64,000 bases of DNA, from positions 56,482,001 through 56,546,000 of the forward strand of contig OX597819.1 of NCBI GenBank assembly GCA_951406725.2, read 5' to 3'. A program made the translations under genes and the position numbers. Origin of the DNA: Octopus vulgaris (taxonomy: Eukaryota). This document shows positions 19,358 to 57,891 of the stretch, piece after piece; position 1 is the first letter of the stretch; each line of letters starts with the position of its first letter. The notes beneath the pieces were generated by a model. That model worked only from the letters and a program-made list of their open reading frames with translations, ran no database searches and had not been told where the DNA came from.

Positions 19358-20580
<1,223 letters not shown>

Positions 20581-20581
20581 A

Positions 20582-21078
20582 ATAATATCACATGTAACTG
20601 TAGACGTAAAGCTGAATGCAGGTTTAATAACTGCATGATAAAGAATGTAGCTTACAAATGTGAGAAGTCAGGTTCGCAGAAATACGTGTTCATTTGTACC
20701 ACCGGAGGCGCCATGAAAAATCGTCTGCGTAACTATCTTGCATATTTTTCCAAAATAAACAAAAGGCATTCCCCATCACTATGGAACCTAGTCTGGAGGT
20801 TCAATGAGAATGGAGTGGAGCATACGATTCACTGGTCTATTATAAAACATGCTGCACTATACAACCGAACATCACGGGTAAGCAACTTATGTCTAGAAGA
20901 GACTCTGGAAATCATCACAGCCAGGGAAAACGTAATAAATACACACACCGAGGTTATTATATCATGTAAGCATGAGAGCAAAAGATCGTTTCTGGAATTT
21001 GAAAAATACATTTTGAAACGGAATAACATCAAACACCCTTACCGTATTAAAGTCCAAGGAAAGAATACAAACAAATAA
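20582..21078 (+). pseudogene. Penelope-like element GIY-YIG endonuclease C-terminus
   Basis: CNCRRKAEC..CMIKNVAYKC..YVFICTT..MKNRLRNY..F..SLWNLVW..IHWSII..NLCLEETLEII..INTHTEVIISCKH is the degenerate Zn-linker plus GIY-YIG pattern of Penelope-like elements. Confidence 0.88.
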
Positions 21079-27654: not shown

Positions 27655-28812
27655 TAGGAAGGCTGCGTTGTCAGAGCGATGGCACGTTCACTAAGCGGAG
27701 AGGAAACGAAAGCGTCGCGATGGGCCCACGTGGTGTAGGCGAAAAGTGGCAATAAAGCCACAATTCGGTCTTTGGTTGACCAGAGCGGATGAGTGGTGTT
27801 CGAGCCGAAAAAAATGTGTGCGGCTTTACAGGGGCACTTTGCTCGACTGTTCGGGACGAATGGTAGGACGGATAACAGGGCAGACTTCGGTGTCTACATA
27901 GATGGCCTGCCATGACTCTCCGCGAGCAAGGTGGAGTGCTGCGAAAGGTCGATAACAGCCGAGGAGATACAGGAACCGATGAAGAGTTGACGAGAAGTAG
28001 ATCGCCGGGTTTGGATAGTCTGCCCTACAAGCTTTATACTTCGATGCCAGACTTGTTTGCAGGCCTCTTAGCAAAGGTCTACTGCAACTGACACTGCTGA
28101 GAAAGGACTACTCAATGCAGAGTTGAAATTTTGGTCAAGCTGTCAGGCACGAAGTTGGTGCTTGTCGTGGACAAGCTGGTTGACGAGGCGCAAACGAGTG
28201 CCATCCCAATCAGGACTATTCACGATAACCTCCATCGTATGCGCTACATCATAGAGAGGGTGGGTAACGAAGCTAGCATATGTGGGGCTCTGATTAATTT
28301 AGATTAATCCAAAACCTTTGATAGGGTCGACCATCAATACTTGGCAGCTGTCCTGAAAGCAGCCGGTTTCACTCCAGTTTTCCACTTTTGGATCACTGCT
28401 TTATACAGCGGCATCTGCTCGGTTGTTCGGGTAAATGGTCACCTGTCGGAGCCATTCAGCATCTTGCGTTCGCTCCGTCAAGGGTGCCCTCTTTCCTCCT
28501 TTCTGTATGTACTGACTCTTGAGCCATTACTGCGGAATTTGAAGGCTTTGAGGGATGTCCCGCGTGATCTAGGATGTAGGAGAAGTGTGTCTGCTTACGG
28601 TGATGATGTCACCGTCATAGTGTCGAGCCACAAGCATATAGACCTGATTGGCGAAACACTACAAGAATATAAAGTTGTGACAGGAGCAAAAATGAACGCA
28701 GAAATGTCAGTGGGCTTGCAACTAGGCATCTGGAGAGGCAAGTCCATGCCATCCAACAGCGTCGTGGGGCACTGGACAGAGGGTCTCGTTAAATTGCTCG
28801 GAATCTGGTGCA
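27655..28812 (+). mobile_element. Tx1/L1-clade LINE ORF2 (RT) fragment, disrupted
   Basis: AQTSAIPIRTIHDNL, ALINLD*SKTFDRVDHQYL, VNGHLSEPFSILRSLRQGCPLS and VSAYGDDVTVIV. Confidence 0.92.
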
Positions 28813-28905
28813 GCAGCAGCAACAACGGCAGTAGAAACCAACCCCGTCACCGCCAGCAACAGTGACGTCGCCTTCAGCTGTAGCTAGGTCACCAGCAACA
28901 CCACG

Positions 28906-28937
<32 letters not shown>

Positions 28938-30755
28938 AAACACCAGTCGAAGTGCTAACAACAACAACTACTGTAGAAGTAGCAGCAGGAACAAATGAAC
29001 TCCAGCAGCAAAGCGAAGGGTCAGCGAAAATCCCATTTCCTGACCAAACAACTCGGACTGTTCGAGTGCTGAGGTCGAGAAGGGGAAATGGCAAACAGTT
29101 CCCCCCTAGAAAAAAGACAGTAGAAGAAAAGAGGGGGAGGTGCAAACAGCAGGAACTTCGCAACAGCAGCAACAGGCAAACACAGCAACCACCACCAACA
29201 ATAACAACACTACCACCAGCACTACCACCTCAAATGCCGACACAGACTGCACAAACACCACCAGCCTCACAATCATCGACACCGACAATACACCACATGT
29301 TACATAGATTAGAGAAAACACAGACAACACAATGAAAGACTTTGTCTTCCCAACACACAACACACCACCAGCACCACCACAACACAATGAAAGACTTTGT
29401 CTTCCCAACACACAACACACCACCAGCACCACCACAACACAATGAAAGACTTTGTCTTCCCAACACACAACACACCACCAGCACCACCACAACACAATGA
29501 AAGACTTTGTATTCCCAACACACAACACACCACCAGCACCACCACAACACAATGAAAGACTTTGTCTTCCCAACACACAATACACCACCAGCACCACCAC
29601 AACACAATGAAAGACTTTGTATTCCCAACACACAACACACCACCAGCACCACCACAACACAATGAAAGACTTTGTCTTCCCAACACACAACACACCACCA
29701 GCACCACCACAACACAATGAAAGACTTTGTCTTCCCAACACACAACACACCACCAGCACCACCACAACACAATGAAAGACTTTGTCTTCCCAACACACAA
29801 TACACCACCAGCACCACCACAACACAATGAAAGACTTTGTCTTCCCAACACACAACACACCACCAGCACCACCACAACACAATGAAAGACTTTGTCTTCC
29901 CAACACACAATACACCACCAGCACCACCACAAAACAATGAAAGACTTTGTCTTCCCAACACACAACACACCACCAGCACCACCACAACACAATGAAAGAC
30001 TTTGTCTTCCCAACACACAATACACCACCAGCACCACCACAACACAATGAAAGACTTTGTCTTCCCAACACACAATACACCACCAGCACCACCACAACAC
30101 AATGAAAGACTTTGTATTCCCAACACACAATACACCACCAGCACCACCACAACACAATGAAAGACTTTGTCTTCCCAACACACAATACACCACCAGCACC
30201 ACCACAACACAATGAAAGACTTTGTATTCCCAACACACAACACACCACCAGCACCACCACAACACAATGAAAGACTTTGTATTCCCAACACACAACACAC
30301 CACCAGCACCACCACAACACAATGAAAGACTTTGTCTTCCCAACACACAACACACCACCAGCACCACCACAACACATACCAATTTTAAAACTAAAACAGG
30401 ACATGTTTAAGACATTAAAAATAAATTTTCCAAATGCTGGTGTCACATTTAAAAATACATTCTTTAAGAGACTATAAAGACCTCGTGGAAACGCCCGCAG
30501 CAAAAACCAGGGTGGCACCCCTGCCAGACAACTATGGTAACTAGAGCTATTCTTCGGATGGTGGTGGTGGGGGGGGGGGGGTTCCACGAGGTCATTAACG
30601 CGCCTCCCCTATTGGGAGTATTAATTTGTTTCATTTTGTATTGTTATTTATATTGTTTACAAGTGGAAAACCTTTTGTATCGTTCTGTTTTTGTCCTTTA
30701 TGTTGTTTGTCATTTAATGTTTTTGTATGTGAGCCCTTGTGGCGAATAAAATAAA
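28813..30755 (+). mobile_element. 3' part of a probable ORF1-only Tx1-type element containing a 55-bp array
   Basis: Pro/Thr/Gln-rich ORF with VEKGKWQTVPPRKK across a frameshift. No endonuclease or RT sequence follows before a T-rich 3' UTR ending GAGCCCTTGTGGCGAATAAAATAAA. Confidence 0.5.
29325..30376. repeat. 55-bp minisatellite, 19 copies
   Basis: Unit CAACACAATGAAAGACTTTGT(C/A)TTCCCAACACACAA(C/T)ACACCACCAGCACCACCA; period 55 (AATGA at 29331, 29386, 29441 and onward). Confidence 0.98.
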
Positions 30756-35514: not shown

Positions 35515-35980
35515 GTTCAGAACAGGTTTGAACATTTTAATAAACCGTTTTCCTTTTATCTTTCTTCCAATCTCACTTATGTTATGTAGTTTGTGGAAAG
35601 GAAAAATTAGAAACATTTTCTGTCCACATGTCTCTATATGTTCGCTCAATGGAATTTGTCGAACATTTGTTTTCCGGATTCGTTGTCTATGGACTCGTGA
35701 GCGTTCCGGTAATGCATTCCCTGTCTCGCTTATTTATAGTTCCTCACAATTCAGGTATTTAATGCTGTAGATCAAATTTCTGCTTTTGCTGTTCACATCT
35801 GCATTTGCAAAAATCCGTTCATTTTTTTGTTCTAATGGATCAACCAGTATGTACGTATTGTTATCATTACACTTGGGTATTATGAATGTTTTTCCGTTTG
35901 TTCATGTTGAATTTTGCCTTTGTTAATGGTTTCTTTACACATTTAAATCAGTTCATTGGCATCCTCTCCAGTTTTCCACT
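35515..35980 (-). pseudogene. Penelope-like GIY-YIG endonuclease (inverted fragment)
   Basis: Minus strand SRNLIYSIKYLNCEEL*ISETGNALPERSRVHRQRIR..IPLSEHIETCG..FLIFPFHKL..RFIKMFKPVLN. Confidence 0.85.
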
Positions 35981-35984
35981 GAGG

Positions 35985-36170
35985 CATAATATCAACATCA
36001 AACGAAGCATTTCAAAACTAGAAAAGTTTGCTCTTATACGTCTTAAAAATGATAACACAATTGTCATCAAACAAGCGGATGAAGCGGGTGCAATTATTAT
36101 TATGGATACAGAATATTACTGGGATCTAGCTGAAGATGATTTTAGCGTTACAACGTTCTACCCGCGAAAA
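35985..36170 (+). pseudogene. Penelope-like pre-RT segment
   Basis: LEKFALIRLKNDNTIVIKQADEAGAIIIMDTEYY matches the PLE motif ALxxLxxdxxIVIKPADKGxxxVIMD. Confidence 0.85.
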
Positions 36171-36384
36171 TTGACCAACGCATGTAAGTGGGTGTGCGGG
36201 CGTGCATGTATATGTATAGGCATGTGCCCTTACGCGATTACTATGAACATTTTTACACCCTTACCTTTATCCCTCCCCTTACTTAGCAGTCATTCTAATA
36301 GCTCTTTTGTCTTAATAACGGTCAATCACACAGAAATTTCCCTTTGTTTAACGGTAATTTTCATAGCATTTTTTTCGATGACCC

Positions 36385-36439
36385 GATAACTGAAGAGGTG
36401 CCATCGTGGATTTCTGGCCTGACATCTCGGAGTTTTATC
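36385..36439 (+). ncRNA. Degenerate hammerhead motif in PLE pLTR
   Basis: GATAA-CTGAAGA-GGTG...CATCTC-GGAG-TT-TTATC. Stem I is intact but the GAAA box and stem III are damaged. Confidence 0.45.
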
Positions 36440-36955: not shown

Positions 36956-37015
36956 TTGCCGCTGAAGAGGGGAAAATTCTTATGAATTAACCCCGAAATT
37001 GGACCAATACGGTAA
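36956..37015 (+). ncRNA. Type I hammerhead ribozyme, intact core
   Basis: Stem I TTGCCG/CGGTAA; CTGAAGA 36962-68; stem II GGGG/CCCC with inner AATTC/GAATT; GAAA 36995-98; stem III ATTG-GAC-CAAT; AUA triplet with predicted cleavage after 37009. Confidence 0.85.
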
Positions 37016-40140: not shown

Positions 40141-40954
40141 AAGCTATTCTCGACGACAGAATCCATCTGAAGTTATATTCCCTGAAGAATCAATACGAAG
40201 TTCTTTTTTTCTTACTTTTATAGGACATCACATTGTTCGTTGTACTAATTTTAGTTCCAATAGATCAATGATTTATTGCTTTCTTATTTGTTTAGTTATT
40301 TGTTACATATTACAATTTGTGAACTGTTGCATCATTGATTCAAAGCTTACAACATGTCAATCATTGTTTTACTAGATTTCCGACGGCGTATGTGTCAAAG
40401 CAACGTCATTAGTTTTTCGATTTCTTAACAATCTTTATATCGACATTCGTTCATCGCTTGTGTTCAGTGGAAAAACCTGAATATTCTTCGTGTTCCTTCT
40501 ATTGTCCAGCTCCTTGATACTCTATGTGCAAACCCTGCTTTTTTTTTTGTTACATTCCTTCGTGTGTCTTTTTATAAAGTTTAATCGTTGCTACCTCATT
40601 CCCTTTGAACAATTCGCCTGTGGCACATATATGGGCGTGGTCGCATGGTAAAAAGCTTGCTTCCCAAACACATGCTTCCAAGTTCAGTCCTAATGCTTGG
40701 GGAAACTGGCCTTATGTTAACCAAAGCCTCCTGGGTGGATTTGGTAGCCGGAAACTGAAAAAAGCCAGTCGTATTCATATATATATTTGTTTTCGCATTT
40801 GGTTTCCAAGATTTTGTATGTGAGTTCGTGTGTTGAATCATGTTCTGTTGTGTCTGGGGAGAGTCATTCTCTTTTAGTGCCTTATAATTTAACACATGCA
40901 CCGCTAAAATTTCCACTTATTTTCGTTGCGTCTTATATATATATATATTATATT

Positions 40955-41095
40955 AAATTAGAGACAAAACCACTATTAGGCAAATCAAACAATGAAAAGC
41001 TTATAATATAATATTTTACTATAAAATTGGATTCAATCCTAAATCTGATTTTTCCCTGTAAGTTTGGATTTATTCCCTAATATTTATTATATATA
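40955..41095 (-). mobile_element. Short (TA)n-flanked element sharing the PLE-like 3' terminus TAGTGGTTTTGTCTCTAAT
   Basis: Inverted copy at about 41590-41666; the same terminus occurs at 52951-52969, downstream of a hammerhead. Confidence 0.7.
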
Positions 41096-41097
41096 TA

Positions 41098-41296
41098 TGT
41101 AGTTGAAATTGACAGAAAAAAAAAAAAAAAAAATACAGGTGTATATACAACAAGCAAGTATATTAGCTAGACATTCGGAAATGTGAGAAAGTATTTTACG
41201 TTTCGAGCCTACGCTCTTCAACAGAAAGGAACGCGATGAAATAAACAGAGAGAGAATAAAAAAACTTTTGTAGTTAACAGTCGATCATGGCGACTA
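41098..41296 (-). mobile_element. Second copy of the short hammerhead-like element (motif at 41193-41228)
   Basis: Minus strand CTTT-CTGTTGA-A-GAGC-GTAG-GCTC-GAAA-CG-TA-AAAT. Confidence 0.65.
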
Positions 41297-41386: not shown

Positions 41387-41951
41387 TGCAGGAGGTGGGG
41401 TGTGGTAATTAGCTTGCTTACTCACCACATGGTTCCGGGTTTAATCCTACTGTATGATACTTTGGGCAAATATCTTGTACTATAGCGTCGGGCTGACTGA
41501 AGCCTTGTGAGTGTATTTATTGGACGGAAATTAAAAGAAGCCCGTCGTATATTTATATATATATATATATAATATTATATATATATATAATAAATATTAG
41601 GGAATAAATCCAAACTTGGCTTAAGTTTTTCATTGTATGATTTGCCTAATAGTGGTTTTATCTAATGTATTTTGCTTGAAAATCTATATATGAATATCCT
41701 GCAGAGTGAGAATTCATCGAGGAAGCGGAAGCCTACCACACGCCGACGATAGGCAATACACCTTGAAACCATGGTCCGTGTGTGGTTTCCGCTTCATCGG
41801 GGAATTACCTCCCTTTGCAGGTTAAGGACACCGTGACGGTGTCGGGCCTTTCTGGTGACGTCGATGTTCGCCTGGGGCTAAATGCAACAGTAACACCCCC
41901 ACCACCCTGCCCTGTCCCTAGCCATATTCAGATGGCTTTAGTCCCTTATGT

Positions 41952-42009
<58 letters not shown>

Positions 42010-42200
42010 TAGTTGTGTCGTCCCACCATCCCTTGATAACCGATGTTTTCGTCTCCATAAACTAGCGGTTCGGTAAAAGGACCCAATAGAATAACTACTA
42101 GGCTTACAAAGAATAAGTCCTGCGTTCGATATGTTCGACTAAGGGCGCTGCTCCAGCGTGACTACTGTCAAATGACTGGAACAATAAAAGAATGAAAGAA
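41387..42200 (+). mobile_element. SINE family B split by insertions into its internal (TA)n
   Basis: The 5' half (41387-41550) and 3' half (42010-42200) are separated by (TA)n-bounded foreign sequence. Confidence 0.8.
41698..41821 (+). ncRNA. Type I hammerhead-like motif (U4-to-C) in a long extended stem I
   Basis: CACACG(41737-42), CCGACGA, TAGG-CAATACA-CCTT, GAAA, CCATGG, TC, CGTGTG(41777-82). Stem III is the palindrome ACCATGGT. Outer pairings are GAAGCGGAA/TTCCGCTTC, AATTC/GAATT and CCTGCAGAG/CTTTGCAGG. Confidence 0.75.
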
Positions 42201-42349
42201 TATATATATAATCAGCAGTTTTCAATGTCTCACTAAATGTACCTTGGGTGTTAAGAAGCATCTACATTGATAGAAATAAGAGCTACACCGCTCTAATGCG
42301 ACCATAATTCTTCGAAAAATGCCGATCGAGAATTCTTAATGCCGACGTT

Positions 42350-42503
42350 ACTTGTTCCAGGCATTTGATTGCGGCCGTGCTATCGACCCAGAACTTATTC
42401 TTCATAAGCCTAGTAATTATTCCACAGTGCCTTTTGCCGAACCGCTAAGTTAACGTGTCGTAAACCCCAGCATCCGTTGTCAAGCGATGGTAATGAGACA
42501 AGG

Positions 42504-42562
<59 letters not shown>

Positions 42563-42725
42563 TTATATGTACAACATGGCTTCTTTCTGTTTTCGTCTGC
42601 CTCATCCACTTACAAAGCTTCCGTCGGCCCAAGGCTATAGAAGACACTTGCTCAAGATGCCACACAGTGGGATTGAACCATGGGGATGGGAAGCAAGCTT
42701 CTTATTACACACTCACACCTGCACC
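42350..42725 (-). mobile_element. SINE family B
   Basis: TTTTGCCGAACCGCTAAGTT...GGCTATAGAAGACACTTGC. Confidence 0.8.
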
Positions 42726-51260: not shown

Positions 51261-52971
51261 TTTGCCTGTGTGTGTGTTTGTGTGTGAATGTGTATATGGG
51301 TTTGTTATTTAGGTTTTGGGATGTATGTGTTAATTTGTCTGTGTGTGGAGGGAGTGGATTTTGGTGTATATTGAGGTTTATAAGTTAGTATAGGTATGTG
51401 TATAAGTCGTGGGTCTGTGGTTTACGTGTGTGTATTTGTGTGTGAATGTTTAGGTTAGGGGGATTGCTATATAGGTTTGTTATAGAGTTTAGCAAAGGGA
51501 GATTTTATCGTTATATGTTTTTAAGAGTTTTGGTTTATCATGGTTTTTTTAGGGAATTCGTGGTAATTTGTCTATTTTCGATGTTGGTTGTTTTATTGCA
51601 TTGTTTCATTCATAATTTTTGAGTGGTGTTCGTTTTGCCACGTGAATATTATTTTTAATTCCATTTATTCCATTTCTCCATTCATTAATTTAGAGATGTT
51701 CGTTTCCGGAGCGGTTATACTTTTTATACATATGTTAAGTTCCTTGGTAAAGTAATTTTGTTTGGTGTATATGTTGAGGCTTATATGTACTTGTGGGTGT
51801 GTGTGAGTGGGGTGGGTGTTTGTATTTGTTATGGGTGTGTGGTTTACATGTGTGTTTTTGTGTGTGAATGTATAGGTTAAAGGGATTGCTATATAAGTAT
51901 GTTATAGTGTTTAGTAAAGGGAGGTTTTATCATTTCTGTTTTGTGAGTTTTAGCTTATCATGGTAGTTTTATAAAAGAATCCATTCATAATTTTTGTGTT
52001 TATTTGTCTGTGTGGGGTTGAGTGGGTTTTTGGAGTATATGTTGAGGTTTATATGTATGTATTGGTATGTGTAAGTGGTGTGGGTATTTGTATATGTCGT
52101 GGGTGTGTGGTTTACGTGTGTGTATTTGTGTGTGAATGTTTAGGTTAGGGGGATTGCTATATAGGTATGTTATAGAGTTTAGTAAAGGGAGATTTTATCA
52201 TTATATGTTTTTGTGAGTTTTGGTTTATCATGGTAGGTTTGTTAAGGAATTCGTAGTAATTTGTGTATATTTGCGATGTCTGTTGTTTTATTGCATTGTT
52301 TCATTCATAATTTTTAAGTAGTGTTCGTTTTACCAAGTGAATATAATTTTTAATTCCATTTATTCCATTTCTCCGTTCATAATTTTGAGTGATGTCCGTT
52401 TTCTAGAGCGTGAATGTGGGTTGTATGTGTGTGTGTGTGGGAGTATGAATAAGTATTGTGTTGAAGTATTTAGCTATTTTATTTATTTATAGTTGCCTAG
52501 ACGTTTTTATGTGTATGTATAGGGATATATATATAGGTGTGTGGTTTAGTGTATGTAGTTAGATATGGTTATATATAATTAGGTATATGTGTATGGGTGT
52601 ATATATAGTTTATTATTATATTATTATTATTTTTTTGTTTTGTTTTATATTTTATATTTTATATTTTATATTTAATTGTTGATAGGTTTATTTTAGTTTA
52701 TATATTGTTTATATATTGATTATATATGGATTATATATAGGTTATATATGGATTATATATTTATATTTTTTCATTCATACTTTAATTATTTTAAAATTAT
52801 TATTTGTATATTTTAAAATATTGATATTTTAGATTGAAGTCCACCTGAAGATTGTCGATCAAGACAAGAAACGATTGTAGTGGCGGTTTTTTTGACTATT
52901 TATTAAAATTTTATGTATTGATTAAGTCTTTCCTTGTTTGTTTTGCAAAATAGTGGTTTTGTCTCTAATAA

Positions 52972-57412: not shown

Positions 57413-57590
57413 TGGCGCAGGAGTGGCGCTGTGTTAAGTAGCTTGCTTACGAACCACATGGTTCCGGGTTCAGTCCCACTGCGTGGCACCTTGGGCAAGT
57501 GTCTTATACTATAGCCGACAAAAGCCTTTTGAGCCGACAAAAGCCTTTTGAGTGGATTTGGTAGACGGAAACTGAAAGAACCCCGTCGTA

Positions 57591-57630
<40 letters not shown>

Positions 57631-57891
57631 GTGTGTGTGTGTGTGTGTGTATGTGTGTGTGTGCGTGTGCGTGTGTTTGTGTGTCTGTGTTTGTTCCCCC
57701 AACATCACTGACAACCGATGCTGGTGTGTTTGCATCCTCGCAACTTAGCGGATCGGCAAAAGAGGCCGATAACATAAGTACTAGGCTTACAAAGAATAAG
57801 TCCTGGGGTCGATTTGCTCGACTAAAGACAGTGCTCTAGCATGGCCGCAGTCAAATGACTGAAACAAGTAAAAGAGTAAAAGAATAAAAGA
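57413..57891 (+). mobile_element. SINE family B, full length (used as reference copy)
   Basis: GGCGCAGGAGTGG...AAGTAGCTTGCTTACGAACCACATGGTTCCGGGTTCAGTCCC head, internal (TA)(TG) tract and (TAAAAGAG)n tail. Confidence 0.92.

What the first reader, a model, noticed from the sequence alone, without database searches (positions are those of the whole stretch)
41690..41955. Highly structured ~260-nt GC-rich RNA-like module nested in a SINE's (TA)n tract
Seen: a hammerhead fold caps an interrupted ~40-bp rod (41698-41821). It is followed by GACACCGT-G-ACGGTGTC and by GGGGCTAAA...TTTAGTCCC enclosing GCCAT/ATGGC. There is no credible ORF, and the module splits a family B SINE. Known: animal retrozymes are small non-coding hammerhead elements of a few hundred nt with circular RNA intermediates. 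Inference: a retrozyme monomer or an integrated viroid-like RNA.
Basis: partly seen in the sequence, partly recalled or inferred. Interest (0 to 1): 0.75.

Follow-up and report, generated by a model that had tools for sequence, protein, structure and literature searches.

The report
Truncated 360-base retrozyme with C4 hammerhead
This is a cut-off copy (290 of 360 bases) of an abundant non-coding repeat whose head-to-tail unit carries a predicted self-cutting RNA motif with an unusual core letter in nearly all copies read; it likely spreads as a small RNA copied by Penelope-type enzymes, a kind of element already known from corals, mussels and salamanders.

Summary
Largely confirmed, with corrected limits. 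The element runs 41664-41953 (290 nt), not from 41690. Contigs from 3 of 4 RNA-guess runs join 41953 back to 41664 across 70 further letters, so the unit is a 360-nt head-to-tail monomer and this copy is a sub-monomer fragment. It is high-copy. It holds a type I hammerhead on the + strand: 6-bp proximal stem I, palindromic 2-bp helix III, predicted cut after C41776; 0 of 20,000 shuffles match. Two departures from the usual hammerhead, C at core position 4 and a U-U pair closing helix II, show no listed variant in 8 runs, so they are family traits. The rod is real (z -8.2); the 3' part is not above chance, and the proposed 9-bp helix is not predicted. All six frames carry stops. It sits in a SINE's central microsatellite: (AT)26 on the right, another repeat on the left. 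Verdict: new member of the animal non-LTR retrozymes, probably octopus. Cleavage, circularity, genomic tandems and Penelope mobilisation are untested. This scan noted similar retrozymes and C4 cores on other DNA before.

The parts
41388..41547 (+).
   Evidence: BLAST to 57417-57627, 25182-25012, 14446-14300 at 77-81%; alignment A1
41548..41597 (.). imperfect (TA)n tract, part of the SINE's central microsatellite
   Evidence: TRF; alignment
41576..41663 (+). internally deleted copy of a separate AT-rich repeat that also lies between TA tracts elsewhere; abuts the element, sharing about 3 letters at the junction
   Evidence: copies at about 40940-41101 reverse and 52922-52964; loose ends at 41616 and 41663 in all four runs
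41664..41953 (+). 290-nt fragment of a 360-nt retrozyme-type monomer; 70 nt of the unit are absent from the window
   Evidence: joint 41953 to 41664 with 70 letters between in X9, X12, X14; single contigs covering exactly 41664-41953 in X2 and X8
41698..41821 (+). interrupted rod that extends hammerhead stem I
   Evidence: z -8.19; basal and distal pairs mostly above 0.97, the three distal pairs nearest the core 0.42-0.55
41725..41792 (+). type I hammerhead: distal stem I, 3x1 internal loop, proximal stem I 41737-42/41777-82, core 41743-49 with C4, helix II with U-U base and 7-nt loop, GAAA 41765-68, palindromic helix III 41768-75, predicted cut after C41776
   Evidence: constrained fold; descriptor and shuffles; activity untested
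41827..41843 (+). 7-bp hairpin with 3-nt loop, kept in related families
   Evidence: probabilities 0.87-1.0; loose ends of related contigs show one compensatory pair change (X14) and one broken pair (X2), read by eye
41921..41936 (+). short hairpin
   Evidence: probabilities 0.86-0.93
41955..42006 (.). perfect (AT)26 tract abutting the element's 3' end; likely insertion target
   Evidence: TRF
42007..42202 (+). 3' half of the host SINE
   Evidence: BLAST to 24971-24794, 57746-57886, 14190-14121; alignment

Best explanation
The stretch is a 290-nt fragment of a high-copy, non-coding 360-nt head-to-tail unit with a predicted type I hammerhead, that is an animal non-LTR retrozyme, likely transcribed as multimers that would self-cut slowly as ribozyme dimers, likely closed into 360-nt circles, and likely copied into (TA)n tracts by a Penelope-type reverse transcriptase and endonuclease. 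Shown: unit length and head-to-tail joint in assembled contigs, many diverged copies, hammerhead geometry, no ORF, place in a microsatellite. Inferred from known families: dimeric cleavage (2-bp helix III with palindromic loop), ligation by an RtcB-type ligase, Penelope mobilisation. Inferred from this copy: its ends lie 113 nt before and 177 nt after the predicted cut, so its template was not a linear cut monomer but a circle or an uncut multimer, unless later deletion trimmed a longer insertion. With one ribozyme and 70 nt missing, this copy could not make a monomer and is likely inert.
For: Joint 41953 to 41664 with 70 letters between in 3 of 4 RNA-guess runs of three studies; the X9 contig is 390 nt, the unit plus a 30-letter overlap. 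In one search (no joint listed in 4 of 4 runs) X8 and X2 have contigs of 390 and 391 nt with 100 letters outside 41664-41953 in different phase, which fits the same loop. 20 of 24 listed runs, 11 studies, 4 organism labels hold half the words or more. DNA runs lay 1668 and 624 contigs of 80-100% likeness, a count that includes the neighbouring repeat. Hammerhead matches the 'canonical metazoan type I' description: helix I about 6 bp, helix III of 1-2 bp with palindromic loop (PMC4209133). The U-U base of helix II with a 2-bp helix III is described for axolotl HHR_Amex2, which cuts better as a dimer; mussel units are 350-390 bp (PMC7229834). The polymorphic core site is 41747, the free position 7 (60% and 71% of depth in X1, X3). 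One X12 contig of 549 nt begins the unit at 41775, 2 nt before the predicted 3' product, after 83 foreign letters; one case, weak. Listed differences are 12 A>G and 0 T>C of 21, which points to the + strand as the RNA strand. PLEs favour (TA)n targets (PMC8557442), and a GIY-YIG-like remnant lies at 20533-21078.
Against: No cleavage or circle is shown. A loop in contigs cannot tell a circle from a tandem transcript or from DNA, and the RNA label of the runs is a guess. No tandem was seen in DNA: the two DNA runs list no joint and only short pieces, and no genome was held. C4 considerably lowers activity in vitro (PMC3088659), and here it is combined with a U-U pair and a fold 8.8 kcal/mol above the minimum (helix II probability 0.05, helix III 0). 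8 of 9 predicted Xenopus retrozyme dimers did not cut in vitro (10.64898/2026.07.22.740005). No sequence link to any PLE was found in the window. X16 shows no joint. No target-site duplication can be read in the microsatellite.
Confidence: 0.63

Rival explanations
1. Same family, but the ribozyme is effectively silent. The C4 core with a U-U helix II does not cut usefully, and the family spreads from uncut multimeric transcripts of tandem arrays, or grows as satellite DNA, with no circle.
For: C4 lowers activity in vitro; the active fold is not the predicted minimum; this copy spans the cut site intact; most predicted frog retrozymes did not cut; contig loops fit linear multimers equally well.
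Against: All other core letters and stems show no listed variant while position 7 varies freely, as expected if the core is under selection, though a young family would look alike. A C4 viroid variant stays infectious. U10.1-U11.1 is the best-tolerated mismatch. One contig starts the unit within 2 nt of the cut.
Confidence: 0.2
2. The fragment is the 5'-truncated terminal repeat (pLTR) of an autonomous Penelope-like element; the 360-nt loop reflects short partial tandems of that repeat.
For: PLE insertions are mostly 5'-truncated, form partial tandems and favour (TA)n; retrozymes and pLTRs are related; summed DNA depth is higher over the 3' part; related contigs share only parts of the unit and run on into other sequence.
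Against: Where the continuation of this family was read it returns to the unit after 70 nt (3 joints; matching loose ends behind 41953 in X8, X16 and, with one differing letter, X14). The hammerhead is of the canonical kind (6-bp stem I with internal loop, short helix II), not the minimal PLE kind with 7-8 bp helix II.
Confidence: 0.12
3. An exogenous viroid-like or zeta-virus-like circular RNA, reverse-transcribed into the genome.
For: Rod-like fold, 360-nt loop, length divisible by three.
Against: Stops in all six frames; no hammerhead on the minus strand of the 290 nt seen; hundreds of diverged contigs in DNA runs; the 3' part is not rod-like.
Confidence: 0.03

Closest known systems
Metazoan non-LTR retrozymes (Cervera and de la Pena 2020, PMC7229834; parts 2-4 of 6 read, supplement not readable), closest the mussel 350-390 bp family and axolotl Rtz_353 / HHR_Amex2
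   Same: Non-coding unit of 170-400 nt, head to tail, one type I hammerhead, GC about 50% or below; 2-bp helix III with tetraloop and U-U base of helix II as in HHR_Amex2.
   Different: Core reads C at position 4 throughout the copies read; the ribozyme is predicted to be partly locked in an alternative rod register, which that paper reports only for some mussel circles; cleavage and circles untested; host lineage not covered in the text read.
Vertebrate retrozymes as PLE derivatives (Li, Clavereau and Pollet 2026, bioRxiv 10.64898/2026.07.22.740005; parts 1-3 of 5 read, supplements closed)
   Same: Dispersed monomers and fragments beside multimers; proposed PLE mobilisation.
   Different: No homology to a pLTR could be tested here; that survey covers vertebrates, three insects and a coral.
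Hammerheads in PLE terminal repeats (Cervera and de la Pena 2014, PMC4209133, part 1 of 4; Craig et al. 2021, PMC8557442, passages)
   Same: Type I topology, palindromic helix III, truncated copies, (TA)n targets.
   Different: No ORF and no minimal-type long helix II; the unit closes on itself after 360 nt.
Natural U4C hammerhead variant of a viroid (cited in Perreault et al. 2011, PMC3088659; passages and section 8 read)
   Same: Same core change.
   Different: There a rare variant; here the family norm, combined with a U-U pair.

Membership tests
animal non-LTR retrozyme | unit of about 150-450 nt repeated head to tail | tested here: met
   360-nt joint in 3 of 4 runs; contig lengths fit in 2 more
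animal non-LTR retrozyme | tandem copies in genomic DNA | tested here: inconclusive
   none in the window; no joint in 2 DNA runs with short contigs; no genome held
animal non-LTR retrozyme | one type I hammerhead per unit | tested here: met
   geometry met, with C4 and U10.1-U11.1 departures
animal non-LTR retrozyme | non-coding | tested here: met
   stops in all six frames of the 290 nt; 70 nt not examined
animal non-LTR retrozyme | many genomic copies | tested here: met
   hundreds of diverged contigs in two DNA runs; no copy number derived
animal non-LTR retrozyme | self-cleavage at the predicted site | not testable with these tools
   needs transcription assay; one contig junction 2 nt from the site is a weak hint
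animal non-LTR retrozyme | expressed as linear and circular monomers | tested here: inconclusive
   loops in runs only guessed to be RNA; contigs cannot separate circle from multimer
animal non-LTR retrozyme | target-site duplication when present | tested here: inconclusive
   flanks are a repeat fragment and (AT)26; none readable
type I hammerhead ribozyme | canonical core with U at position 4 | tested here: not met
   C at 41744, no variant listed in 8 runs; a known tolerated variant; Rfam no hit
type I hammerhead ribozyme | three helices around the core, A15.1-U16.1, NUH cut site | tested here: met
   GUC at 41774-41776
autonomous Penelope-like element (pLTR) | repeat flanks an RT plus GIY-YIG ORF | tested here: not met
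   no ORF adjacent; continuation loops back after 70 nt; other genomic copies not examined
viroid-like / zeta-virus-like RNA | ribozymes in both polarities or an endless ORF; no genomic family | tested here: not met
   70 nt not examined

The most novel reading that the evidence does not exclude
A retrozyme family that has fixed a deliberately slow ribozyme (C4 core, U-U helix II, alternative rod register): cutting happens only co-transcriptionally in dimers, so finished 360-nt circles stay closed and serve as templates for Penelope enzymes, and the circles are A-to-I edited on their + strand. This would give a sequence-encoded answer to the open question, posed in PMC7229834, of how animal retrozyme circles avoid reopening.
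Probability: 0.2. Interest if true: 0.6.

Novelty: new member of a known kind. Interest (0 to 1): 0.35.

Why it matters
The kind is known. The value is a new family in a lineage not covered by the papers found (searches; an Octopus vulgaris repeat annotation, PMC13282606, has no mention of ribozymes in its main text), and a natural test case: a successful family whose ribozyme core departs from the canonical one in nearly all copies read. Comparing native and canonical-core dimers, and looking for circles, would show whether retrozymes need fast cutting, slow cutting or none. This particular copy is a likely inert fragment.

Tried and rejected
Own-genome search: no genome held, so no copy count, array structure or insertion ends. 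Rfam: nothing at gathering score in the window; only (TA)n-driven and weak chance hits near the element. Metagenome scan with the ribozyme core: 0 matches. Run search: no RNA holder listed on record; RNA labels are guesses. Contig ends at 41777 in X14 and X16 looked like cleavage ends but equal the variant at 41747 plus 30 letters, an assembly effect; rejected. Strict hammerhead descriptor missed the motif. Short pieces of the missing 70 nt were not found in the window. Summed depth was not turned into a copy number. The complete circle was not folded, because the 70 nt are only partly visible. A-to-I editing is not claimed: of 12 A>G sites 2 are also in DNA runs and about 5 come from one contig of depth 2.7; the remaining 5 against 0 give p = 0.024, thresholds differed (5% DNA, 2% RNA), no matched DNA, and selection for G-U pairs gives the same skew. 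PLE-like fragments: Pfam nothing for 20533-21075 and 35886-36386; no longer homologues for the first; the second has only a weak Atlas hit. Lunse et al. on dimeric PLE hammerheads is not held (title seen only). Look-ups of earlier findings by sequence and by relatives gave nothing. The supplement of PMC7229834 and bioRxiv supplements could not be seen and may list cephalopod or C4 families.

Full report
Setting. The window is AT-rich animal DNA full of microsatellites and SINEs. The SINEs look octopus-like to me; that is recalled, and earlier scan notes on this genome say the same, but no call of mine names the organism. No whole genome was held, so relatives came from public sequencing runs.

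Limits and unit. The 266-mer is single in the window, but 20 of 24 listed runs, from 11 studies and four organism labels, hold half its words or more. Two DNA runs laid 1668 and 624 contigs at 80-100% likeness on 41600-41962, a count that includes the neighbouring repeat; summed depth over the element is about 0.05-1.25 million, which the tool warns is no copy number. In two RNA-guess runs a single contig covered exactly 41664-41953: 390 nt with 82 letters before and 18 after, and 391 nt (one inserted base) with 99 and 1. Equal outside totals in different phase suggested a loop of 360 nt. One search tested this on four more RNA-guess runs: X9, X12 and X14 show the joint '41953 to 41664, goes back 290, 70 letters between'; X16 does not, but has the same loose end behind 41953 as X8. 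So of six RNA-guess runs, three show the joint, two fit by length and one is silent; the two DNA runs list no joint. The element is therefore 290 nt of a 360-nt head-to-tail unit. A contig loop does not separate a circle from a tandem transcript or from DNA.

Structure. The 266-mer folds at z -4.39. The signal comes from the rod 41698-41821 (z -8.19); 41822-41953 is at chance (z -0.71). Loose ends of related contigs keep the first hairpin with one compensatory change in one case and a broken pair in another (read by eye). All six frames hold 3-5 stops, which also excludes an endless ORF in a unit whose length is divisible by three.

Ribozyme. The rod tip can fold as a type I hammerhead: distal stem I, 3x1 internal loop, 6-bp proximal stem, core 41743-41749, 3-bp helix II with a 7-nt loop, GAAA, a 2-bp helix III inside an 8-nt palindrome, and GUC with the cut after 41776. 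A relaxed descriptor, set after I had seen the motif, matches 0 of 20,000 shuffles and 0.05 times per shuffled window. Rfam does not score it. Two departures: C at position 4, and U-U at the base of helix II. Neither site has a listed variant in the eight runs (thresholds 5% and 2%), whereas position 7, three bases away and free in hammerheads, varies in 60-71% of DNA depth. So C4 is the family norm, not decay of this copy. U4C lowers activity in vitro yet allows viroid infectivity (PMC3088659), and U10.1-U11.1 is the best-tolerated mismatch and occurs in axolotl HHR_Amex2 (PMC7229834). The active fold lies 8.8 kcal/mol above a mispaired register; energy models do not credit the tertiary contacts, so this suggests a lock but does not show one. 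One search for 'hammerhead' with 'U4C' returned one paper, a narrow search that misses other notations.

Insertion site. The SINE's two halves are collinear with three other copies, which have only a microsatellite between them. Here that gap holds a TA tract, an internally deleted copy of a second AT-rich repeat ending at 41663, the element, and (AT)26. So nesting in the SINE is right, but only the 3' end touches (TA)n. The order of the insertions and any target duplication cannot be read.

Mechanism. By the model of PMC7229834, arrays give multimeric RNA, hammerheads cut, a host ligase closes circles, and PLE enzymes are the likely copiers; the 2026 preprint links retrozymes to PLE terminal repeats. 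The short palindromic helix III implies dimeric cutting (PMC4209133). PLEs favour microsatellite targets (PMC8557442). This copy spans the cut site (113 nt before, 177 nt after), so its template was a circle or an uncut multimer, or it was trimmed later. One X12 contig starts the unit at 41775 after 83 foreign letters, 2 nt from the predicted 3' product and running 1.3 units; it is one of 16 loose ends listed and was picked after the fact, so it is a hint only. Differences are 12 A>G and no T>C among 21 (nominal p 1.2e-4; 0.024 after removing two sites seen in DNA and five tied to one shallow contig). Editing or selection for G-U pairs would both give this, and both point to the + strand. A GIY-YIG-like remnant at 20533-21078 (Pfam and a homologue search blank) suggests PLE-type elements in the genome but has no sequence link to the unit.

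Against. Nothing here shows cutting, circles, genomic arrays or the helper. Eight of nine predicted frog retrozymes did not cut in vitro. A silent-ribozyme version of the same family is the main rival, a PLE terminal repeat the second.

Novelty. Searches for retrozymes or hammerheads with octopus or cephalopod listed no paper whose title or abstract start describes one; I read passages only of PMC8557442 among those, and supplements that I could not see may list such families. An octopus repeat annotation has no 'ribozyme', 'hammerhead' or 'retrozyme' in its main text. This scan has 52 notes holding all my search words, including 360-nt units and C4 cores in this genome; these are unchecked AI notes, and sequence look-ups did not link them to this family. 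Verdict: a real, likely inert fragment of a new retrozyme family with a variant core; new member of a known kind; interest 0.35.

Noticed in passing
window 36956-37015 (+): A second type I hammerhead-like motif with a canonical core (6-bp stem I, 4-bp helix II, near-palindromic helix III, predicted cut after 37009); the only other descriptor hit in the window. It lies between TA tracts, about 570 nt downstream of the ORF fragment at 35886-36389.
   Followed up: partly
window 20533-21078 (+): 181-codon open frame resembling a PLE GIY-YIG endonuclease: Atlas score 0.97 to eukaryotic GIY-YIG clusters, Pfam blank. Its cysteine-rich start resembles the Neptune/Naiad-type motif (recalled).
   Followed up: partly
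window 35886-36389 (+): Open frame with a stretch that I recall as like the region upstream of PLE reverse transcriptases; only a weak Atlas hit (DUF8422, 0.90, low recognition).
   Followed up: partly
window about 40940-41101 (-), 41576-41663 (+), 52922-52964 (+): AT-rich repeat of about 160 nt flanked by TA tracts; two copies 500 nt apart in inverted orientation, the second lacking about 54 nt in the middle. Unclassified.
   Followed up: partly
runs X2, X12, X14, X16, X3 laid on 41664-41953: Related families share the 41850-41937 part and the hairpins but differ elsewhere (loose ends at 41846-41868, 41899, 41937). Loose ends from two different runs are complementary by eye, suggesting a sister rod with changed sequence.
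   Followed up: no
run X14, contig on 41851-41953: One shallow contig (depth 2.7) carries A>G at 5-6 of the 11 A's in 41880-41905, a pattern like hyper-editing; assignment to one contig is by equal depth.
   Followed up: partly
window 42381-42491 and 42570-42724 (-): Another copy of the same SINE in opposite orientation directly downstream of the host SINE, split by a (CA)n tract.
   Followed up: no
window 29324-30376; 28308-28865: Near-perfect 55-bp tandem array of 19 copies, shortly after a reverse-transcriptase fragment (PF00078, E 4e-13).
   Followed up: no
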